From contig SUVA01000006.1 of the NCBI GenBank assembly GCA_015062245.1, positions 1,753 to 65,752 of the forward strand: a stretch of DNA of 64,000 nucleotides. Reading direction: 5' to 3'. The translations under genes and the position numbers were made by a program. How positions within the stretch are numbered: position 1 is the stretch's first letter; each line of letters opens with the position of its first letter. The DNA is from Alphaproteobacteria bacterium (GTDB lineage: Bacteria > Pseudomonadota > Alphaproteobacteria > CAAHEQ01 > UBA3637). Shown piece after piece: positions 10,005 through 49,243 of the stretch. The notes below the pieces were generated by a model, which was not told the origin of the DNA, did not search any database, and saw only the letters and a list, made by a program, of their open reading frames with translations.

Positions 10005-10754
10005 ATGAAACAATCAGATATTAAAGTTGGAATTATCGGTTATGGTGTTATCGGTTCTACATTCAGTCAGTGGTTAAAAGAACATACCCAATGCCGTCAG
10101 GCAATATCTGATCCGCCAAAGGGAATAAATGAAGATTTAACGGGTTGTAATGTCTTTTTTGTTGGGATTCATATTCCGACCGAAGCCGATGGAACACAGG
10201 ATTTAACCCTTTTAAAACAGATCATTTCAAATTTACCACAAGGACCGGTCTTTATCAGGACAACCTTATTACCGGGAACAGCGGATAAATTGACGAATGA
10301 ATTGATGCGACCTGTGTATTTTATGCCTGAATTTTTAACAGAACGTACGGCCTATGCTGATTTTTGTTCTCAGGATGTGGTGATTACAGGCGAACATGAA
10401 TTGATGGATGCGATATTTGCAAACAAAAAACGCTTGTATATGTCCAATATCGAAGCTGAATTGACCAAATATGCCCATAATGTTTTTGGGGCTGTGGCTG
10501 TTACATATTTCAACGGTATTTATGATTTGTGTCAAAAGGCTGGCGCAGAATATGAAAAAGTACGTCAAGGACTTTTGCTCAGTGGTTATATTGCGCCAAC
10601 GCATTCTCATGTGCCGGGGCCCGATGGTAAATTTGGTTATGGTGGAAAATGTTTCCCAAAAGACGTAAATGCCTTTACCGAATACAGCAAAGGAAGCCCT
10701 TTATTCAATCTGTTGGAATCGGTTATCAATGCCAATAAAGTGTTCAGAAACTAA
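10005..10754 (+). CDS. Short UDP-glucose/GDP-mannose dehydrogenase family protein
   Basis: GYGVIG Rossmann motif, PEFL, AELTKY, GYGGKCFPKD; ends before the usual C-terminal UDP-binding domain. Confidence 0.8.
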   Translation: MKQSDIKVGIIGYGVIGSTFSQWLKEHTQCRQAISDPPKGINEDLTGCNVFFVGIHIPTEADGTQDLTLLKQIISNLPQGPVFIRTTLLPGTADKLTNELMRPVYFMPEFLTERTAYADFCSQDVVITGEHELMDAIFANKKRLYMSNIEAELTKYAHNVFGAVAVTYFNGIYDLCQKAGAEYEKVRQGLLLSGYIAPTHSHVPGPDGKFGYGGKCFPKDVNAFTEYSKGSPLFNLLESVINANKVFRN

Positions 10755-11944
10755 TCGTTTCTGAACATTGGCAATCCTTTTTTCATCAATGTTTCTTGTT
10801 GTTCCATAAAGGTGGCCAGGTTGATGTTACCGCCACGGATGGTCATACGCATTTGATCGGCCGCAGACGAATTGGGGTTAGCAAAGGCGGTTTTATAGTG
10901 CAGTTTTAATTTTTCAACACCGTCCAAACGTTGATAGATAACACCCAAAATACCACGGGCCAATAAATCGGCCACCAAACCGCTGTCCAATCCGGTGGAT
11001 GAAGCATATTTAATCATAGAGTTTAAAGCATCTTCCACACCGTTGGCGTGAATGGTTGAAAACACCAAGTGTCCTGATGTGGCCGCCACTAAACATTGGG
11101 CTGCCGTTTCAGGCGTACGGATTTCCCCCACCAAAATATAACGTGGTTTTGAACGCAAGGCAGAACGCAAACCCGCACCCCATTGATCGTTTTCAACGGT
11201 TGTTTGTTTGCATAATCCCAATCCGCCGTTTTTGGCGTGATAAAGACCGGATAAAGGCATTTCGGGCGGATCTTCAATTGTAAGTAAAAATCCACCTTCT
11301 GTTTCCAAATAACGTTTCATAATGGCGGACGCAGATGTTGTTTTACCTTGACCTGTTGGACCGGCAAATAAAAGCAAACCTGATGATTTGCCCAGCCCTG
11401 ATAAATGTTTTACAATCTCTGGCGCAAAGCCCAGTTGTTCAATTTCCGGTGCTTTGTTGGGCATTTTACGACAGTTAAACTGAACACCCTCATTGGCCAC
11501 AATTCTTTCCACACGGTAATAATCGCCACCGAATTTGACAGAATAACTGGAAGTGCCGGTATAACCTTGTTCCAACGCCCGTTTAAATTCAGGCAGATCC
11601 GGTGTTTCAATCGGAATCAAAGCAAAACGAGTTCTGGGATCACGCACATAGGCAATGTCTTCCGGCGTGTACCAAATATCGGAAAAGCCTGTGTCATGCA
11701 GGCTTTCGCCCTTAATAACGGTTGCATCAGCACTGATTTGATCGGCTTCATTTGAAAAGGTATGCTCTGCTTTTTTTTCGCCTGTTACAGAAGGGTTGGT
11801 TGACGCACCACCACGCAAAGCCGCCAAAGGATCTTCCGTTGGTGTTTGCATTTGTTGAACGGGCTGTCCGCTTGGTTGATTATTGTCAAGAGATTCGGGT
11901 TGGTTATGGGATAAAAAATTTGGTAAAATTGGTTTGTCAAACAT
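10751..11944 (-). CDS. PilT/DotB-like secretion or retraction ATPase
   Basis: Walker A GPTGQGKTT, TIEDPPE Asp box, ALRSKPRYILVGEIR Walker B, GHLVFSTIH His box. Confidence 0.85.
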   Translation of the reverse strand: MFDKPILPNFLSHNQPESLDNNQPSGQPVQQMQTPTEDPLAALRGGASTNPSVTGEKKAEHTFSNEADQISADATVIKGESLHDTGFSDIWYTPEDIAYVRDPRTRFALIPIETPDLPEFKRALEQGYTGTSSYSVKFGGDYYRVERIVANEGVQFNCRKMPNKAPEIEQLGFAPEIVKHLSGLGKSSGLLLFAGPTGQGKTTSASAIMKRYLETEGGFLLTIEDPPEMPLSGLYHAKNGGLGLCKQTTVENDQWGAGLRSALRSKPRYILVGEIRTPETAAQCLVAATSGHLVFSTIHANGVEDALNSMIKYASSTGLDSGLVADLLARGILGVIYQRLDGVEKLKLHYKTAFANPNSSAADQMRMTIRGGNINLATFMEQQETLMKKGLPMFRND

Positions 11945-11999: not shown

Positions 12000-12785
12000 T
12001 TATTTTGTTTTTCTTTTTAATGCCATTGCAACAAACGGGCAAAATTGTTTTTTCTTGTCAAAAACGTTTGTTTTTGATATTTTTCCCGTATCATCAATGG
12101 TGGCATATTCTATACTGCTTATCGGTAAGTTTTCTTTGCCTGTGTATTTTAAAGCTATACCATTGGTCAGGACGCTTTGTTGCATAAAACGATTATAATC
12201 CTGTTTGAAATCGGGATTGTTTTGACACAAATAATCGGTTAAAGTTTGGAAAAATACGGCATCGGCACATCCTTGACAGGGATTGCCCCCTTCTTTTCGT
12301 ATGAAATTTTGTTGCATTGTCGGGGCAAAGTGGCTGGCACCTTTGATTGTTAAACAGATATCATCATTTTCTTTTTTTAATTGAATGGATTGAATGCTGG
12401 TTAAAAGACTTTCATTTGACGGTAATTGAATGTTCAGATTTTGCATTTTTTTATTAATAAAATCTTGATGTTTTGCAAATAAATCGCATAACCCCGGTGC
12501 ACATTCCACATCTGCTTGCCACAACGGATAAGTAATTTTTTCTTTTTCTGTATCAATCCCCACAATGATGGCTTCTTTCAACATTTGTTGAAAATTTAAA
12601 AATTGAATATGGTTTTCGGCCAGATTTTCATTTGACCAAACATAAAATCCATTTGCCTGTCCACCAATACCTTGACCGATGGGTTTTGCACCTTCTTTAA
12701 AAAATGATTTAAAATCATCGGGATTTGTTCCGACATGGTAAAAACGGACGCTTTGTTTTTGTTCTAATGTTTTTTGAAGGGTCAT
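12000..12785 (-). CDS. Orphan protein, paralog of 48464..49243; possible ADP-ribosyltransferase fold
   Basis: Shares FYH, DFKSFF[KR]EGAK, GFYVWSN, KYTGK and CPF with 48464..49243; SD GGAGG upstream; fold is inference. Confidence 0.7.
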   Translation of the reverse strand: MTLQKTLEQKQSVRFYHVGTNPDDFKSFFKEGAKPIGQGIGGQANGFYVWSNENLAENHIQFLNFQQMLKEAIIVGIDTEKEKITYPLWQADVECAPGLCDLFAKHQDFINKKMQNLNIQLPSNESLLTSIQSIQLKKENDDICLTIKGASHFAPTMQQNFIRKEGGNPCQGCADAVFFQTLTDYLCQNNPDFKQDYNRFMQQSVLTNGIALKYTGKENLPISSIEYATIDDTGKISKTNVFDKKKQFCPFVAMALKRKTK

Positions 12786-17200: not shown

Positions 17201-17630
17201 TGGATTGCCCGTTTTAATACCGGCCGATTATATCAATGAATTGGATGTGCGGATGGATTTATATCATCGTATGGGTGAAATTCGCACATTGGAAGAAGTA
17301 AATACGATGCGTTCAGAGTTAAAGGACCGTTTTGGTATGTATCCTGTGGAAACGGAAAATCTGTTTTTGACATTGGAATTAAAACTTTTGGCCCGTCAAG
17401 CGCATATCGAACGATTGGATGCGGGTGAAAAGGGTGCAACAATTTCATTCTTTAACAACACTTTCCCGAATCCGGCCGGTTTAGTGGATTATATCAAATC
17501 TCAGGTTGGGACAATGAAAATCCGACCTGATCAAAAAGTGGTGGCCATTCGTTCATGGAAAAATACGGATACCCGATTAAAAGGTATCCGTGATATGATT
17601 CAAAAAATTGCCGAATTGGCCGTTCATTAA
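14259..17630 (+). CDS. mfd: Transcription-repair coupling factor
   Basis: GDVGFGKTEVA, DEEQHFGV, QLRGRVGR, TRCF C-terminus. Confidence 0.97.
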   Translation: MINQIYSGVPDGYEAFVLVKQLQKGHVLYVASDEKKAMRTYETLLRIFPKIPVLFYPAWDTVPYDRTSPSSDIVGNQLDTLIQLQRLKKNTVVITSVPAVSQLIPPTDVFSKSIKKLAVGDKVDFDELKSFLVRLGYQSTDVVMQAGDFAVRGEIVDIFTPGLSLPVRLDFFDDELESIRFFNPTTQRTTDILKEFEIKPVRLFELTEDNCHLFRSRYRELFDNPVQDMIYQAVSQMRYMDGMEHYLPLFYSQMVSLFDYLPNATVFVGTTFEESLKAREAQVNDYYQARSQFQSPNAPAYHPLPPDLFFISSDSMNQYLKKQNVIRLTPFQSEKSKNQGATPSRDFVDIRVQKDKDLFLEIADYVRSCPKRVVMTTLTEGAGDRLVALFKEKELALNFSDDFNQALKKAPSVMVAPFETGFQTEDLLVLTETDMFGQRLQSLPKRRKAQDFIADISSLSKGDLVVHTLHGIGRFVGLETIQVAGAAHDCLLLEYAENARLFVPVENTDVLSRYGSGEVALDRLGNPSFANRKAKLQKDLMQMADKLMKIAGKRALHQMPKILAPHGLYQEFCARFPYTETEDQLRTVSEIESDLSMGKPMDRLVCGDVGFGKTEVAMRAAFLAVMAGYQVAVIAPTTLLARQHTQNFIQRFDGFPIRIASLSRLVSARQSKQVKDELQKGSLDIVVGTHALLSKTLSFKNLGLVIVDEEQHFGVKHKERLKEMQTGVHVLTLTATPIPRTLQLSLSGVRDLSVIATPPVDRLAVKTYVMSFDPVVMKEAILRENFRGGQTFVVVPRISDMDDVYDDLKILLPDLKMVKAHGQMPPTQLEKIMSDFTQGDYDVLIATSIIESGLDLPRVNTMIVYRADMFGLAGLYQLRGRVGRGKQKAYAYLTTTGKLSENARKRLEVMQKLDSLGAGFMLASHDLDIRGAGNLLGSEQSGHIREIGVALYQKMLAEAVQSLKHDKTKSVDMDFSPQISVGLPVLIPADYINELDVRMDLYHRMGEIRTLEEVNTMRSELKDRFGMYPVETENLFLTLELKLLARQAHIERLDAGEKGATISFFNNTFPNPAGLVDYIKSQVGTMKIRPDQKVVAIRSWKNTDTRLKGIRDMIQKIAELAVH

Positions 17631-18022
17631 ATGGCATCATCCTTTGGTGGTGTATAGGTGTTTTCCGTTTCGTTCCAATTATTACCCCATTGGTTGATGA
17701 CGCTGTTTTTAACTTTTGGGCAATCATCAGTTGTTGAAAATTCAATCGTTACCACGCCGTTTGAATTAACGCTTAAAGAGCTAACACATTTATAATCATC
17801 CTTTTTTTTACCGATGGCTTTCCAAATAGCATCATTGTCATAAAATTTTATCATTGTTTTGCCGGTCATAGATGCGATGGATACCAATTCGGCTGTTTGA
17901 TTGGCTTTGTTCATACTAACCGCAGATTGATATCCCATAACACCGGTCATACCGATAATCCCAATTAAAGCCAAAACAGCCAGCATTTCAACCAATGACT
18001 TTCCTGTTTCATTTTTTTTCAT
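17627..18022 (-). CDS. Short type IV pilin-like protein
   Basis: Class III signal peptide ETG|KSLVEMLAVLALIGII with Glu at +5; one Cys pair; own promoter. Confidence 0.8.
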   Translation of the reverse strand: MKKNETGKSLVEMLAVLALIGIIGMTGVMGYQSAVSMNKANQTAELVSIASMTGKTMIKFYDNDAIWKAIGKKKDDYKCVSSLSVNSNGVVTIEFSTTDDCPKVKNSVINQWGNNWNETENTYTPPKDDAI

Positions 18023-20161: not shown

Positions 20162-20249
20162 GAAAATAAATAATCAATTTTCCCGCTTGACAAGGTGTGT
20201 AAATTATGCTAGTGTGGGGATAAGGCATAAGAAAGGAGAGCCGATTACA

Positions 20250-20327
20250 ATGTGTTTAAATTGCGTTAAAGGTCAAAATAAAAGGACTTTGTACACACAC
20301 ACACACACAAGTAGTTTTGCAAATTAA
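20250..20327 (+). CDS. 25-aa leader peptide MCLNCVKGQNKRTLYTHTHTSSFAN
   Basis: AAGGAG SD upstream; same length and frame as the paralogous peptide at 31944. Confidence 0.7.
   Translation: MCLNCVKGQNKRTLYTHTHTSSFAN
20293..20309 (+). repeat. AC dinucleotide tract, 17 nt
   Basis: acacacacacacacaca read directly. Confidence 0.97.
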
Positions 20328-20417
20328 GTTATGCCTTGGCATAATAAACCCACTGTATGATTACAGTGGGTTTAATTGCGTTTAAATAATGTCAAACAAT
20401 TAACAAAGGAGTAAAAA

Positions 20418-20711
20418 ATGGCATTAGCATTCATAACAACAAAACAAACCGCAGAATTTCGAAAGAGGCATGGCATAGACCCAAAAGCAAAGCTTACAGA
20501 GGAACAACGCCAACAATTGTATACCGAAGAAGTTGTAGATAGATATAAAAGGCTTGCTGAAAAATCAACACTGACGCAACGTTTAAGGGCGGCTTCCTTG
20601 GATGGAAAAAATAATGATAGTATGCAAATTAATCAAAATTTAAGAGAATCTGAACAGAAAAACTCTGAAAACACAGCAGTCATGAATAAAATGAAAAGAG
20701 AAGGCCGTTAG
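20418..20711 (+). CDS. Orphan 97-aa protein downstream of leader copy 1
   Basis: AAGGAG SD; ends NKMKREGR; followed by a terminator. Confidence 0.75.
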   Translation: MALAFITTKQTAEFRKRHGIDPKAKLTEEQRQQLYTEEVVDRYKRLAEKSTLTQRLRAASLDGKNNDSMQINQNLRESEQKNSENTAVMNKMKREGR

Positions 20712-31876: not shown

Positions 31877-31943
31877 TCGCTTGACAAGTGGTGAAAGGTT
31901 CGCTAGTATGGGGATAAGTAAAGAAAATGGGAGGCTATTTAAA

Positions 31944-32021
31944 ATGTGTTTAAACCACGGTAAAGGTGTAAATAGATGGACCTTGTACACACACACACAC
32001 ACATGTAATTTTGGATATTAA
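31944..32021 (+). CDS. 25-aa leader peptide MCLNHGKGVNRWTLYTHTHTCNFGY
   Basis: GGGAGG SD upstream; same length and frame as the peptide at 20250. Confidence 0.7.
   Translation: MCLNHGKGVNRWTLYTHTHTCNFGY
31987..32003 (+). repeat. AC dinucleotide tract, 17 nt
   Basis: acacacacacacacaca read directly. Confidence 0.97.
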
Positions 32022-32159
32022 GTTGTGCCTTGGCACAACCGACCCACTGTATGTCAAATACGGTGGGTTAAACTGTATTTGTCATTTTGAAATGGGCTCG
32101 CCCATTCAGAATGACAATTTTAATTACTGTCATAACAAATAAAAGAAAGGAGTCAAAAA

Positions 32160-33314
32160 ATGTCAGTAAAAAACAAAACAAACAAAAACGATAAAAGAAG
32201 TCAAAAGGGGCGCAGTATGGTTGAAATGCTGGGGGTGCTTGCCATCGTGGGCGTTTTGTCCGTGGGCGGTGTGTACGGCTATGGTGTCGCCATGAAAAAA
32301 CACAAAGCCAATGAATTATTGCACCAGGCCTCAATGCTGGCCACTACCATATCGGCACAAATCCAAAGTAAAGGTGAATTGCCCCAAAGCATTGAAGATT
32401 TTGGCAATGGTAAATACGGGACATTTAATCCCCCCAGTGAAGCAAATGCTGAACAATTTACCATGCAAATCACAGGTATGGATTCTGCGGTTTGTACCCA
32501 AATGGAAAAGATGGCGAGCGGAATGGTGCGTGAAGCCAAATGTAATGGCACAACATTGACCTTAACCTATAACAACAATTTATCCAGCGACAAAGTCGCC
32601 GCCGATTATAATGGTGATGAAGACGGTTGTAAAGACAGTGGTCGTAAATACTGTTCAGGTTCAAATTCTTGCGTTGCTTTGGATAAGGAATGCGGATGTA
32701 GTGGCACAAATAACGGCTGTCAAAAATGCGATACAGAAACGGGTTCTTTGGTTGCCGATGATGAAAAAGAAGGTGAAAATTGCACCACATCTGATGGTAA
32801 AGCAGGAACATGTAATGATGGCGTGTGTGAGGAAAAAGTGGATTGTCCTAATGGCTTGGATGCGAATGAAGAGGGAAAGTGTATTTGTACAGACCACACA
32901 ACGAATCAATGTGGATTGGGATATTATTGCAAGTTTGTTCCGGATGATGATGCTTGTGGTGATAGCGACCGTGGAGATGGTGTTTGTACAGCCGTTGGCA
33001 GTGGTACTTCCATCAAAGACGGGGCTTATTTAAAGAGTTCTGATCCTATGGATTGGTGGAGTGCATACAGTTGGTGTAAAGGGAACGACATGGATTTGAT
33101 AACGGGGACAATAGACGGCATACCGTTGAACAGTGATTACTTTGATGAGGATAATTATATATTGTATAACTACTTTGGAGAGTATTTTAAATTTTGGACA
33201 GGTTATGAGGATGACCATTCCTGTTACACGTGGTACGCTTACGCTGAGCCTGACCATGAGTGGGTCGGCTCGGACGCCAGTCGCGACTGCGAGTTCTCCG
33301 CTTTGTGTCAGTAG
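32160..33314 (+). CDS. Large type IV pilin-like protein with Cys-rich stalk and putative C-type-lectin-fold tip
   Basis: SQKG|RSMVEMLGVLAIVGVL class III signal; many Cys; DWWSAYSWC...FWTG...SCYTWY...SALCQ tip (fold is inference). Confidence 0.85.
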   Translation: MSVKNKTNKNDKRSQKGRSMVEMLGVLAIVGVLSVGGVYGYGVAMKKHKANELLHQASMLATTISAQIQSKGELPQSIEDFGNGKYGTFNPPSEANAEQFTMQITGMDSAVCTQMEKMASGMVREAKCNGTTLTLTYNNNLSSDKVAADYNGDEDGCKDSGRKYCSGSNSCVALDKECGCSGTNNGCQKCDTETGSLVADDEKEGENCTTSDGKAGTCNDGVCEEKVDCPNGLDANEEGKCICTDHTTNQCGLGYYCKFVPDDDACGDSDRGDGVCTAVGSGTSIKDGAYLKSSDPMDWWSAYSWCKGNDMDLITGTIDGIPLNSDYFDEDNYILYNYFGEYFKFWTGYEDDHSCYTWYAYAEPDHEWVGSDASRDCEFSALCQ

Positions 33315-33338: not shown

Positions 33339-33378
33339 ACAACATCCTGTCGGTTTAATCGGCGGGATGTTTTCTTTT
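33339..33378 (+). terminator. Hairpin with T tail after the pilin-like gene
   Basis: aacatcctgtcg-gtttaat-cggcgggatgtt then ttcttttt. Confidence 0.75.
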
Positions 33379-46897: not shown

Positions 46898-46973
46898 GAG
46901 TGCGTAGCTCAGCTGGTAGAGCACCTGACTTTTAATCAGGTGGCCGAGGGTTCGAATCCCTCCGCGCTCACCA
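46898..46973 (+). tRNA. tRNA-Lys (anticodon TTT)
   Basis: 76-nt cloverleaf; cctga-cttttaa-tcagg anticodon arm, GGTTCGAATCC T arm, CCA end. Confidence 0.97.
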
Positions 46974-47233: not shown

Positions 47234-47953
47234 TTAACGTTCAGAACCAGACCTTTGTTTCAAAAGACGTGGTGTTTTATTAGCCGCCGCAGAAAGGAGA
47301 GATTTAAGTCCTGTCTTTACTACAACTTTTCCATCAGAATCATCCTCATAGACTGTAACCTTACCTTCTGCATCTTTCACTAAAGTCCGTCCTGGACGCC
47401 CCATTGTATCAAATGCAGAATGTTCTTTAATCTCCATTACTTTTCCTGCATTATCTTTGTGAATTTCACTAATAATATATCCCTTTTCGTCATACCCTAA
47501 TTCAATACTTTTTACTGTTCTACCAATCCCATCCTTTATAATTGTTTTTATAGCGTTTCCATTTTCATCAAACGTGTCTTCAAAGATTGATGTTATATTG
47601 CCATTTTCATCCTTCTTGAATTCAGTATCTCCTAGTAGTTTACCATTAGCATCTTTATGATTAATTAGTCTAACACTTGGGTCTTCATTTGCAGTTCCAT
47701 CTTCATTAAGGATATATTCATCAGTACCTACTACTTTACCATCTGCATCCTTTATGATTACAGCAGTATTATTTCCTTTTTCATCAAAGATCCATTCCTC
47801 TGTACTTGTTACTTTACCATTCGCATCTTTAAAAGACTGAATACCTTTTCCTGTTTTTTCATCAAATCTCTGCTCCACAGTGGATAATACTTTCCCTGTT
47901 TCATCTCGTTCAAATATTGTCTTACCTTCTTTGAAATATTGTATAACTTTCAT
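47234..47953 (-). CDS. Orphan beta-hairpin repeat protein (YD/RHS-like repeats)
   Basis: Repeated KD[AG]xG[KR]V...[FY]DE[KN]G units; tail RLLKQRSGSER. Confidence 0.75.
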   Translation of the reverse strand: MKVIQYFKEGKTIFERDETGKVLSTVEQRFDEKTGKGIQSFKDANGKVTSTEEWIFDEKGNNTAVIIKDADGKVVGTDEYILNEDGTANEDPSVRLINHKDANGKLLGDTEFKKDENGNITSIFEDTFDENGNAIKTIIKDGIGRTVKSIELGYDEKGYIISEIHKDNAGKVMEIKEHSAFDTMGRPGRTLVKDAEGKVTVYEDDSDGKVVVKTGLKSLLSAAANKTPRLLKQRSGSER

Positions 47954-48128: not shown

Positions 48129-48153
48129 GGTTGGAGTCCCTCCGCGCTCACCA
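48129..48153 (+). repeat. Duplicated tRNA-Lys 3' end (attR-like)
   Basis: ggttggagtccctccgcgctcacca versus ggttcgaatccctccgcgctcacca. Confidence 0.9.
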
Positions 48154-48463
48154 TTTTGAACAAGTCGTCTGAAAAGGCGACTTGTTCAATTCCAACATCA
48201 ATTCATTCTGCGTTACCACTTGAATTCATTGTGTTTCATTGCTTTACGCATAAAAATTGTCCACTGGACACTTTTTATTTTGCGCAGTTTATTTACAAGC
48301 GTTTAAGCCGGTTCGATTGGACTCAACACAAAAAGCGCCTATTTTCATCAACAATCGAACTCACAATCACGAAAGTACTTGATTTTATTATATTTTATGT
48401 TTTTTGATGCTGTTTAGACGGCCCATCCTACATTCGAATTTTTAAGCTACTTTTATAGGTAAT

Positions 48464-49243
48464 TTACCGCTGTAGATTTTTTAATTTCAAAAAAGGACAA
48501 ACTTGTTGGCTCCCTTTTTCTTTATCCCATAAAACAGTTTGCTTTAAATGATCCTTTTCATCCACTAAAACATGTGTTGCTGATGTGATGGTTAAAGGTT
48601 TTTTTCCAGTATATTTAAAGGCATTTCCCTTTTGATAAGTTGTTTGCATTAATTGAGAATAATCCTCTTTAAATTGAGGGTTGGTATTGCATAATACATC
48701 TACAAGAGTTTGCCATAAAACAGCTTCTGATGCTGGATGAATAGGACTATACTTTTTATAATGGGTAAGTACAAGAGGAAAATCTGAATTAAAAGATGTT
48801 TTCCCCTTAAACTGAAAAATCGTTTTGTCTTCTTCTTTTTGACATGAAATTTCACATATTTTTTTCAAAAATAATTCATTATTGTGCAAGGTAATATTCA
48901 AATTTTTTAAATTTTGATTGATAAAATTATCATATTGATCGAATAACTCAAATAATCCCATGGCATATTCCACATCTATCTGCCATATAGGATATTTCAG
49001 AGATTCTTTCGGAACACTGATTCCCAGAATCAATGCTTCACGTTGGGATAAAGATTTATTTAAAAATCCGGAATTTAACAAATGGATATGGTTTTTAGCC
49101 AAAGTCTTATTTGACCACACATAAAATCCTTTGGCATCAGCATTAGATAAGGTCGTTTTGGCTCCTTCGCGAAAGAATGATTTAAAATCGTTTGTATCTG
49201 TTGCGATGTGATAAAAAGTTATAAATTTATTTTTTAGAGCCAT
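48464..49243 (-). CDS. Orphan protein, paralog of 12000..12785; possible ADP-ribosyltransferase fold
   Basis: Full-length motif conservation with 12000..12785; own promoter at 49262-49290. Confidence 0.72.
   Translation of the reverse strand: MALKNKFITFYHIATDTNDFKSFFREGAKTTLSNADAKGFYVWSNKTLAKNHIHLLNSGFLNKSLSQREALILGISVPKESLKYPIWQIDVEYAMGLFELFDQYDNFINQNLKNLNITLHNNELFLKKICEISCQKEEDKTIFQFKGKTSFNSDFPLVLTHYKKYSPIHPASEAVLWQTLVDVLCNTNPQFKEDYSQLMQTTYQKGNAFKYTGKKPLTITSATHVLVDEKDHLKQTVLWDKEKGSQQVCPFLKLKNLQR

What the first reader, a model, noticed from the sequence alone, without database searches (positions are those of the whole stretch)
32160..33314. Modular giant pilin with possibly two layers of variation
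Seen: class III signal with unusual +1 Arg (G|RSMVE), a pilin-like head, a long acidic Cys-rich stalk, and a Trp/Tyr-rich tip, transcribed from the AC-tract leader. No pilus assembly genes are adjacent. Inference: a minor pilin or adhesin under ON/OFF switching (leader) and sequence diversification (tip), suited to host or phage evasion or to receptor sampling.
Basis: partly seen in the sequence, partly recalled or inferred. Interest (0 to 1): 0.7.

Follow-up and report, generated by a model that had tools for sequence, protein, structure and literature searches.

The report
Pilin-like adhesin with hypervariable lectin tip
This gene from an uncultured gut alphaproteobacterium encodes a pilin-like surface protein whose lectin-fold tip carries the codon signature of retroelement-driven hypermutation, but the tip is fixed in this strain and no retroelement was found within reach.

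Summary
The ORF at 32160-33314 is real and matches the description: a basic 17-residue leader ending in Gly, then RSMVEML plus a 21-residue hydrophobic tract, a pilin-like head, an acidic stalk with 17 Cys, and an aromatic-rich tip.

It belongs to a family of at least 520 proteins in gut Alphaproteobacteria MAGs. Heads, stalks and tips are shuffled among members.

The tip folds as a C-type lectin-like domain. Its last ~30 codons look like the variable region of a diversity-generating retroelement (DGR). Hypervariable codons are NNC, with C at the third position in 0.50 here and 0.57-0.79 in relatives, against about 0.2 in the rest of the gene. Adenine is depleted. Two relatives are identical over ~1.2 kb except for first- and second-position changes in this stretch.

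No reverse transcriptase or template repeat was found in the window or in ~413 kb of related loci. This copy's tip is identical in five metagenomes.

The (AC)8 tract lies inside a 25-codon upstream ORF in a conserved structured leader. That leader precedes at least seven family genes. Tract lengths of 5, 8 and 12 all keep one reading frame, so ON/OFF switching is not shown.

Verdict: partly supported. This is a new variant of known kinds.

The parts
31881..31909 (+). Sigma-70-like promoter of the leader (TTGACA, 17 nt spacer, TAGTAT)
   Evidence: 10 of 12 matches. It is the only '+' strand promoter-like site between the upstream ORF's end (31876) and the gene. It is conserved in the leader copies.
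31944..32021 (+). Upstream ORF of 25 codons (MCLNHGKGVNRWTLYTHTHTCNFGY*), preceded by the SD-like GGGAGG at 31929-31935
   Evidence: The same uORF, ending at the same TAA just before hairpin 1, is present in the w1, L019, L022, L030 and L033 copies.
31987..32002 (+). (AC)8 tract, read as Thr-His repeats inside the uORF
   Evidence: 2 copies in the window against 0 expected. The tract is 8 units in the window (both copies), L015, L019 and L022; 5 in L030 and L033; 12 in L017; 16 in L016.
32022..32039 (+). Leader hairpin 1 (GTTGTGCC-TTGG-CACAAC)
   Evidence: the stem is conserved, the loop is free to vary, and compensatory pairs are present.
32042..32068 (+). Leader hairpin 2, terminator-like, followed by a U-rich stretch
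   Evidence: Together with hairpin 1, 6 of 18 pairs show changes on both sides across 8 copies.
32081..32115 (+). Leader hairpin 3 (17-bp stem), followed by AAUUUUAAUU
   Evidence: the whole leader RNA folds at -71.5 kcal/mol, z = -4.8 against shuffles.
32160..33314 (+). Modular pilin-like gene (384 aa)
32160..32273 (+). Class-III-like signal: 17-aa basic leader ending in Gly, then R+1 ... E+5 and a 21-residue hydrophobic tract
   Evidence: Pfam N_methyl scores 15.7 bits (cut-off 21.2). TIGR02532 scores 12.9 bits (cut-off 16.3).
32274..32594 (+). Pilin-like head (alpha-1C helix plus a 4-stranded sheet; C112 and C128)
   Evidence: PilW hit 7t31 has prob 0.91, PilV hit 5v23 has prob 0.82.
32595..33014 (+). 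Acidic, disulfide-rich stalk (17 Cys, pI 4.05)
   Evidence: pLDDT is about 90. No Pfam family matched.
33015..33311 (+). C-type lectin-like tip domain
   Evidence: pLDDT 89.9. All top 50 PDB hits are C-type lectin-like domains (CTLDs), with prob mostly 0.8-0.99 and TM mostly 0.45-0.60.
33219..33311 (+). DGR-type variable region (approximate limits), apparently static and partly decayed in this copy
   Evidence: third-position C is 0.50 against 0.21 in the rest of the gene (p = 1e-3), and A content is 0.15. The region is identical in five assemblies.
33341..33371 (+). Intrinsic terminator shared with the convergent M50B peptidase gene
   Evidence: 14-bp stem followed by a T run.
20184..20378 (+). 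Second copy of the leader, also with (AC)8, in front of an unrelated 97-aa ORF (20418-20711)
17627..18022 (-). Small (131 aa) pilin-like ORF with the same unusual basic +1 residue (G|KSLVEML). It has no leader and no tip.

Best explanation
The gene encodes a modular, type-IV-pilin-like surface protein. It has an N-terminal pilin module for membrane extraction and incorporation into a type 4 filament, a disulfide-rich acidic spacer, and a C-terminal C-type lectin-like ligand-binding module.

Shown:
- It belongs to a large multi-copy family confined so far to uncultured gut Alphaproteobacteria. Copies sit singly among housekeeping genes. Heads, stalks and tips are exchanged by recombination.
- The same chromosomal slot holds different alleles in different genomes.

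Inferred:
- The last ~30 codons of the tip are a diversity-generating-retroelement variable region. A template with AAC codons is reverse-transcribed with adenine-specific errors and copied into the gene. This gives NNC codons at the ligand-contacting positions.
- That process is recent or active for some family members.
- In this window's copy the region is fixed across samples. It carries several non-NNC codons at variable positions. It is therefore a former target, or an occasional trans target, of a retroelement encoded elsewhere in the genome.

Largely inferred:
- Transcription starts at a promoter about 280 nt upstream and must pass a conserved leader. The leader holds a translated 25-codon uORF with (Thr-His)n encoded by (AC)8, followed by two or three hairpins, at least one of them terminator-like.
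- Ribosome behaviour on the uORF probably sets read-through, in the manner of an attenuator.
- The tract length fixes which of three conserved frames is read: an immediate stop, a stop before the hairpins, or read-through to 15-33 nt before the main ATG. Only the second state has been observed.
For: Family and modularity:
- 520 homologues. Many share only the head, or head plus stalk.
- The syntenic slot holds P0001, P0007 (different tip) or P0073 (42% identity).
- P0023 and P0101 carry the same tip and the same variable region on different heads.

Fold:
- Full-length model, pLDDT 85: a pilin-like helix plus sheet, with hits to PilW and PilV.
- Tip model, pLDDT 89.9: all top 50 PDB hits, and the top viral-library hits, are C-type lectin-like domains.

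DGR signature:
- Five related variable regions align as TCC TGY NNC GCG TGG NNC GTY NNC GCT NNC NCT NNC NNC GAG NNC GTC NNC NNC NNC NGT CGC (NNC)5-10 GCT YTG TGT.
- Third-position C is 0.50-0.79 in the variable region against 0.19-0.26 in the rest of the gene, in 13 of 23 tip sequences scored (12 distinct variable regions). Fisher p ranges from 1e-3 to 1e-8. Housekeeping genes of the window have 0.17. Adenine is depleted.
- The genes in L025 and L027 are 100% identical in DNA over about 1220 nt including the leader. They differ only in a ~70-nt stretch, at first and second positions of 12 codons whose third base (C or T) is unchanged, plus one codon indel.
- At least four variable-region variants occur on a tip body that is 98-100% identical. 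More variants appear in short fragments that also diverge in the tip body.
- Remote targets diversified in trans have a precedent (PMC10907252).

Leader:
- A promoter-like site.
- Strong structure, z = -4.8.
- Hairpins 1 and 2 are conserved in 8 copies, with 6 of 18 compensatory pairs.
- The three-frame layout is conserved in 8 of 8 copies, plus L033.
- The leader precedes family genes in 7 of 8 distinct HMM-detected copies. A divergent copy in L016 also precedes one.
Against: - No reverse transcriptase and no template repeat was found. The whole window was scanned against Pfam. About 413 kb around 30 or so related loci was searched by RT motifs, blastn and an Asn-codon scan. IMG/VR was also searched.
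- This copy's variable region is identical in five assemblies from different samples.
- Codon-length indels occur among the variable regions. Classical DGR homing does not make these.
- 10 of 23 tips show no codon signature.
- The tip resembles canonical animal-type CTLDs. The Mtd and TvpA variant folds were not among the top hits.
- The prepilin motif is below the family cut-offs, and +1 is Arg.
- No prepilin peptidase, platform protein or secretin is present in the window.
- The AF2 model gives low confidence for residues 1-38.
- No allele of the leader in the read-through frame has been seen.
Confidence: 0.6

Rival explanations
1. The tip varies only through ordinary evolution: diversifying selection plus recombination among many paralogues (cassette exchange, as with silent pilin copies). 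No retroelement is involved.
For: - Module shuffling is clearly happening.
- Variable regions differ in length by whole codons.
- No RT or TR was found anywhere.
- This copy is static.
Against: - Selection or recombination does not explain why hypervariable codons keep C at the third position in a genome whose third-position C is 0.17.
- Nor does it explain why L025 and L027 differ at first and second positions only, inside 70 nt of an otherwise identical 1.2 kb. With about 17 differences, none at a third position has a probability of roughly (2/3)^17, or about 0.001.
- The excess is specific to C, not to G+C, so biased gene conversion is not a good fit.
Confidence: 0.15
2. The protein is not a pilus subunit. 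The N-terminus is an uncleaved signal-anchor, or a pseudopilin of a secretion-type system, so the lectin tip acts in the periplasm or at the cell surface without a filament.
For: - The +1 Arg is atypical, and the motif is below the Pfam and TIGRFAM cut-offs.
- There is no assembly machinery near the gene, and only one divergent T2SSE-family ATPase in 64 kb.
- Some DGR-diversified pilin-like proteins of Bacteroides are periplasmic (bioRxiv 10.1101/2024.11.15.621889).
Against: - Gly-1, Arg+1 and Glu+5 are at least 90% conserved across 74 homologues.
- A small pilin-sized paralogue with the same motif exists.
- The head has the pilin topology.
- The hydrophilic leader plus 21 hydrophobic residues meets the published definition of a class III signal peptide (PMC8179133).
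Confidence: 0.2
3. The (AC)n tract is not a phase switch. It is a frame-constrained coding repeat in a leader peptide that works as a conventional ribosome-mediated attenuator (for example, sensing Thr/His-tRNA supply or translation rate), or simply as an unstructured CA-rich translation enhancer.
For: - All 7 determinable copies are in the same frame. Tract lengths are 5, 8 and 12, so the closely related copies differ by multiples of 3 units.
- n = 8 at this locus in three assemblies and at both loci of this genome.
- The uORF has a good SD and stops next to conserved hairpins.
- The same leader drives an unrelated gene.
Against: - The third frame stays open through all hairpins and stops 15-33 nt before the main ATG in every copy. 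This holds even across an in-frame 96-nt insertion: 77 codons without a stop, shuffle P = 0.014-0.02. That is hard to explain if the frame is never read.
- Tract length does vary between loci, from 5 to 16 units.
- Several metagenome contigs break at or within the tract.
Confidence: 0.4

Closest known systems
Modular type IV pilins (Streptococcus sanguinis PilB with a vWA module, PilC with a lectin module; PMC8179133)
   Same: A small pilin module with a class-III-type signal peptide carries a bulky ligand-binding module grafted on its C-terminal side. The predicted role is as a minor, adhesive subunit. The gene is not necessarily next to the machinery.
   Different: - +1 is Arg, and the motif is below the family cut-offs.
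- A long disulfide-rich stalk lies between the modules.
- The grafted module is a C-type lectin-like domain with a hypervariable C-terminus.
- Dozens of shuffled paralogues occur per lineage.
- There is no experimental evidence of piliation.
DGR variable proteins with a C-type lectin fold (Bordetella phage BPP-1 Mtd, Treponema denticola TvpA, Legionella LdtA; from established knowledge and PMC10907252)
   Same: The variable region occupies the last ~30 codons of a CLec-type fold. Variable codons are NNC, as expected from AAC template codons. Adenine is depleted. Variation is confined to the variable region on identical backbones.
   Different: - No RT, Avd or TR was found within 10 kb of any of about 30 loci.
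- The fold is nearest to compact canonical CTLDs, not to Mtd, TvpA or FGE-type variants.
- Codon indels occur among the variable regions.
- The N-terminal export signal is pilin-like rather than a lipoprotein signal or a phage fibre.
DGR-diversified type V pilus tip adhesins of Bacteroides (bioRxiv 10.1101/2024.11.15.621889)
   Same: The setting is the gut, with a pilin-type N-terminal domain plus a C-Lec tip carrying the variable residues. The logic is the same: diversify the adhesive end of a pilus subunit.
   Different: - A different pilus system: type V, exported as a lipoprotein and assembled by strand exchange, against a type 4 filament class III signal.
- The Bacteroides genes sit beside their DGR, often on ICEs or prophages. 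Here the genes are dispersed among housekeeping genes and the retroelement is unseen.
Simple-sequence-repeat contingency loci of surface structures, and classical leader-peptide attenuators (his, thr and trp operons); from established knowledge
   Same: A repeat-containing short ORF lies upstream of a surface-protein gene. Terminator-like hairpins follow the leader peptide. The repeat encodes a run of two amino acids (Thr, His).
   Different: - The repeat is in a separate uORF, not in the gene or its promoter.
- Observed alleles are all in one frame.
- The downstream genes are not amino-acid biosynthesis genes.
- No Rfam family matches, even at E <= 1.

Membership tests
Type IV pilin / type 4 filament subunit | Hydrophilic leader peptide ending in Gly or Ala, followed by about 21 mainly hydrophobic residues (definition in PMC8179133) | tested here: met
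   17-aa basic leader ending in G17; residues 18-38 have GRAVY 1.69.
Type IV pilin / type 4 filament subunit | Glu at +5 and a canonical hydrophobic +1 residue (Phe, Met or Leu); curated motif models above cut-off | tested here: not met
   E22 (+5) is present and at least 90% conserved. However, +1 is Arg. Pfam N_methyl scores 15.7 against a cut-off of 21.2. TIGR02532 scores 12.9 against 16.3.
Type IV pilin / type 4 filament subunit | Pilin fold: long N-terminal helix packed on an antiparallel sheet | tested here: inconclusive
   The model has H35-71 plus strands at 88-138. Foldseek hits to PilW (E 0.098, prob 0.91) and PilV (E 0.43, prob 0.82) are weak. Residues 1-38 have low confidence.
Type IV pilin / type 4 filament subunit | Cleavage by a prepilin peptidase and assembly by a T4F machinery | not testable with these tools
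   The window contains only a divergent T2SSE-family ATPase (10751-11944) and a small pilin-like ORF. No A24 peptidase, platform protein or secretin was found.
DGR variable protein | Variable region at the C-terminus of a C-type-lectin-type fold | tested here: met
DGR variable protein | Variation restricted to template adenines (AAC to NNC codons; third positions fixed) | tested here: met
   The signal is strong in relatives. In this copy it is moderate: third-position C is 0.50 against 0.21, and about five variable codons are not NNC.
DGR variable protein | Cognate template repeat differing from the variable region only at adenines | tested here: not met
   None in the window. None in about 413 kb of related loci. 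The rest of the genome could not be searched.
DGR variable protein | DGR-type reverse transcriptase (with or without Avd) in the same genome | tested here: not met
   No RVT family hit in any ORF of the window. No RT motif in the related loci. Whole genomes are not testable here.
DGR variable protein | Ongoing diversification of this particular variable region | tested here: not met
   It is identical in the window, L015, L022, L023 and L024, and in three fragments of the 90% cluster.
Phase-variable (SSR contingency) locus | Repeat-number polymorphism that changes the reading frame or expression state between cells or isolates | tested here: not met
   n = 8 at this locus in three assemblies. 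Across loci n is 5, 8 or 12, all in the same uORF frame (7 of 7). Read-level heterogeneity is not testable here.
C-type lectin-like domain | CTLD fold with the WxxAxxxC / WIGL-like / C-terminal Cys framework | tested here: met
   The sequence shows WWSAYSWC, FWTG and ALCQ. All top 50 PDB hits are CTLDs. Pfam Lectin_C was not detected at E <= 1, so the match is at fold level only.

The most novel reading that the evidence does not exclude
A single, unseen, trans-acting retroelement (or a small number of them) rewrites the lectin tips of dozens of dispersed type-4-pilin-like adhesin genes in gut Alphaproteobacteria. Each gene would also sit behind a three-state repeat-in-uORF attenuator. The cell would then combine module shuffling, targeted hypermutation and stochastic expression to vary what its pili bind.
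Probability: 0.18. Interest if true: 0.85.

Novelty: new variant of a known kind. Interest (0 to 1): 0.62.

Why it matters
Experimentally studied cellular DGR targets are few: lipoproteins of Legionella and Treponema, and type V pilus tips of Bacteroides.

A type-4-filament subunit with a DGR-type lectin tip would extend targeted hypermutation to the most widespread class of prokaryotic pili. Such subunits have so far been noted only as a rare domain combination in one survey (PMC11661182).

It would also offer a natural case of many remote targets with no adjacent retroelement. That bears on how DGRs recognise targets in trans.

The family may shape how an abundant but uncultured group of gut Alphaproteobacteria attaches to host glycans, other microbes or phage-relevant surfaces.

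The conserved uORF-repeat leader is a separate, testable candidate for a new kind of attenuator.

Tried and rejected
- Repeat search and word-7 blastn of the tip against the window found no template copy.
- RT motif scans (YxDD, GNxxSQ) and an Asn-codon-rich window scan over the window and all fetched loci found nothing.
- A protein search with a hypothetical translation of the inferred template found no candidate.
- IMG/VR scans with inferred template patterns gave two chance hits in high-GC phage baseplate genes, then none.
- The family was not found in viral contigs.
- tblastn of the tip against 50,697 phage records gave no match.
- A PDB sequence search with the tip profile gave only noise.
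- The metagenome scan with the tip alignment returned only 3 loci.
- The tip-only protein search returned 3 fragments.
- Gene neighbourhoods of twelve family members were inspected, and none had an RVT domain.
- Rfam gave no match for the leader, either at gathering threshold or at E <= 1.
- I considered whether the AC tract lies in a promoter spacer and rejected it. It lies 78 nt downstream of the -10 element, inside a translated uORF.
- I considered whether the two leader copies are a mobile-element terminus and rejected it. Both are in the same orientation, each directly 5' of a gene, and there are no inverted repeats or transposase.
Full report
**Observation.**
The ORF 32160-33314 (+) is real and encodes 384 aa. 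Its N-terminus is MSVKNKTNKNDKRSQKG|RSMVEMLGVLAIVGVLSVGGV. That is a 17-residue basic hydrophilic leader ending in Gly, followed by 21 mainly hydrophobic residues with Glu at +5 and an unusual Arg at +1.

This meets the published description of a class III signal peptide (PMC8179133). The curated motif models nevertheless score below their cut-offs: Pfam N_methyl 15.7 against 21.2 bits, and TIGR02532 12.9 against 16.3. G-1, R+1 and E+5 are at least 90% conserved in 74 homologues.

The composition claims hold:
- The stalk (aa 146-285) has 17 Cys and pI 4.05.
- The tip (aa 286-384) is 22% aromatic.

Neighbouring genes are housekeeping: an N-type ATPase operon, NAD kinase, an OMP beta-barrel, an M50B peptidase, rmuC and argS. 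A Pfam scan of essentially all ORFs of the window found one divergent T2SSE-family ATPase (10751-11944) and a small pilin-like ORF (17627-18022, G|KSLVEML). It found no prepilin peptidase, platform protein, secretin or reverse transcriptase.

**Family.**
The protein has at least 520 homologues. All named ones come from uncultured Alphaproteobacteria MAGs, and the genome loci recovered are from human, buffalo and deer gut samples.

Coverage maps show modularity. Many hits share only residues 1-145, or 1-310, and continue with other stalks or tips.

The same chromosomal slot holds different alleles in different genomes:
- This allele in five metagenome assemblies.
- An allele with another tip, P0007.
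- A 42%-identical member, P0073.

P0023 and P0101 carry an identical tip on different heads. Copies are scattered singly among housekeeping genes.

**Structure.**
An AF2 model built on 74 sequences (pLDDT 85) gives three parts:
- a long helix (residues 35-71) on a four-stranded sheet;
- a beta-rich, disulfide-dense stalk;
- a compact C-terminal domain.

Full-length Foldseek hits are weak. They include the minor pilins PilW and PilV for the head, and lectin-like domains for the tip.

The tip modelled alone has pLDDT 89.9 and pTM 0.80. In the PDB search all top 50 hits are C-type lectin-like domains, such as CLEC12A, LOX-1, NKR-P1 and CD94. Probabilities are mostly 0.8-0.99 and TM-scores mostly 0.45-0.60. 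CTLDs also dominate the top hits in the viral structure library.

No sequence model detects this domain.

**The tip is a DGR-type variable region.**
Aligned tips have a fixed scaffold with interspersed hypervariable positions: WWSAYSWC ... FWTGHD.GDSC.AW.V.A.S..E.V.....R.....YALC.

At DNA level, five related tips read as follows: TCC TGY NNC GCG TGG NNC GTY NNC GCT NNC NCT NNC NNC GAG NNC GTC NNC NNC NNC NGT CGC (NNC)n GCT YTG TGT. This is the pattern expected from a template with AAC codons mutagenised at adenines.

The codon statistics agree:
- Third-position C in the last ~28 variable codons is 0.50 in this gene and 0.57-0.79 in eleven other distinct tips.
- In the rest of the same genes it is 0.19-0.26 (Fisher p from 1e-3 to 1e-8).
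- In housekeeping genes of the window it is 0.17.
- Adenine falls to 0.12-0.21 in the variable region.
- Ten further tips lack the signal.

The cleanest case is L025 against L027. The two genes are 100% identical over about 1220 nt, including the leader and 22 nt past the stop. They differ only within ~70 nt, at first and second positions of 12 codons whose third base (C or T) is unchanged, plus one codon indel.

At least four such variants share one tip body that is 98-100% identical. Further variants appear in short fragments whose tip body has also diverged.

**What is missing.**
No template repeat or reverse transcriptase was found in any of these searches:
- the window (and the Pfam scans);
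- about 413 kb around 30 or so related loci;
- viral contigs;
- a protein search with the inferred template translation.

This copy's variable region is identical in the window, L015, L022, L023, L024 and three fragments. It also contains about five codons at variable positions that are not NNC (GAG, CAT, TGG, TCG), plus two scaffold substitutions.

I read this copy as a former or rarely hit target. Trans diversification of remote targets has been reported elsewhere (PMC10907252).

**Leader.**
A 176-nt element occurs twice in the window, at 31878-32053 and 20184-20359 (78% identical). The second copy precedes an unrelated 97-aa ORF.

The element contains, in order:
- a promoter-like site at 31881-31909;
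- an SD and a 25-codon uORF at 31944-32021, in which (AC)8 encodes Thr-His repeats;
- hairpin 1 at 32022-32039;
- hairpin 2 at 32042-32068, which is terminator-like;
- hairpin 3 at 32081-32115.

The leader RNA folds with z = -4.8 against shuffles. No Rfam family matches, even at E <= 1.

Hairpins 1 and 2 are conserved in eight copies, with 6 of 18 pairs changed on both sides. Seven of eight distinct leaders detected by an HMM precede family genes. A divergent ninth copy in L016 also precedes one.

After the tract, the three reading frames are laid out the same way in every copy:
- One frame stops at once.
- One stops 17-44 nt later, before the terminator-like hairpin.
- One stays open through all the hairpins and stops 15-33 nt before the main ATG.

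The third frame stays open even across an in-frame 96-nt insertion: 77 codons without a stop, shuffle P = 0.014-0.02.

All seven copies whose uORF start is known use the middle frame, with n = 5, 8 or 12. At this locus n = 8 in three assemblies.

Phase variation is therefore not shown. The data fit a frame-constrained leader peptide acting as an attenuator at least as well. The persistently open third frame keeps the switch idea alive.

**Comparison and verdict.**
The protein works like a modular type IV pilin (PMC8179133). Its tip looks like a DGR variable protein. The closest functional analogue is the DGR-diversified type V pilus tips of Bacteroides (bioRxiv 10.1101/2024.11.15.621889). One survey lists a GspG-type pilin domain among rare domains that hold a variable region (PMC11661182).

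Membership of the pilin family is likely but unproven, given the atypical +1 residue and sub-threshold motif. Membership of the DGR targets rests on the mutational signature only.

- Adhesin-like modular pilin: yes.
- Tip diversification: yes for the family, by a DGR-like process, but not currently at this locus.
- ON/OFF switching: not shown.

Noticed in passing
window 20184-20378 and 20418-20711: A second copy of the AC-tract leader, with the same promoter, uORF, (AC)8 and hairpins, drives an unrelated 97-aa ORF with no family match. The leader therefore looks like a portable regulatory cassette and is not specific to pilin genes.
   Followed up: partly
L022 680-926, L027 20-266, L025 1-200: Some leader copies carry a 96-nt insertion made of short hairpin repeats (MITE-like) between hairpin 2 and the gene. 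Its length is a multiple of 3, and it has no stop in the long post-tract frame.
   Followed up: partly
L016 start, L023 start, L024 start, L025 start, L027 start, L029 start: Six independent metagenome contigs begin inside the leader or the AC tract, or just downstream of it. This may reflect the leader being a multi-copy repeat, or tract-length heterogeneity in the reads.
   Followed up: no
window 17627-18022 (-): A small (131 aa) pilin-sized ORF has G|KSLVEML, again a basic +1 residue. A basic +1 therefore looks like a lineage-wide feature of pilin-like proteins, and not an oddity of one gene.
   Followed up: partly
window 10751-11944 (-): A divergent T2SSE-family ATPase. Its best match is the PilT/PilU subfamily, at 118 bits against a cut-off of 319. 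It is the only filament-machinery-like gene in the 64 kb.
   Followed up: partly
window 46898-46970, 48129-48156, 47234-47953 (-): The 3' 28 nt of a tRNA gene is repeated 1.2 kb downstream at 89% identity. The two copies bracket a 239-aa ORF with internal ~58-nt repeats and faint adhesin-like hits. This looks like the remnant of an element integrated at the tRNA.
   Followed up: no
window 12000-12785 (-) and 48464-49243 (-): Two paralogous ORFs of about 260 aa share stretches at 75-81% nucleotide identity and have no convincing family match. One lies next to the T2SSE-family ATPase.
   Followed up: no
window 32125-32133 and 32160-32168: UACUGUCAU, upstream of the SD, can pair with AUGUCAGUA at the gene's start codon (8 of 9 bp). 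The long post-tract frame ends between the two arms, so a ribosome in that frame would open this stem. An analogous pairing seems possible in the other leader copy.
   Followed up: no
L002 and L011 (same MAG, UBA3637): Two paralogous tips in one genome are about 95% identical. They differ in several short patches well upstream of the last 30 codons, again mostly where one copy has A. The variable region may be longer, or multipartite, in this tip type.
   Followed up: partly
window 32160-32440 compared with L022, L023 and L024: Among samples, the 6-12 nucleotide differences in this gene nearly all fall in the first 280 nt, while the remaining ~875 nt show a single substitution (nt 997, in one sample). 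This suggests recombination at the 5' end.
   Followed up: no
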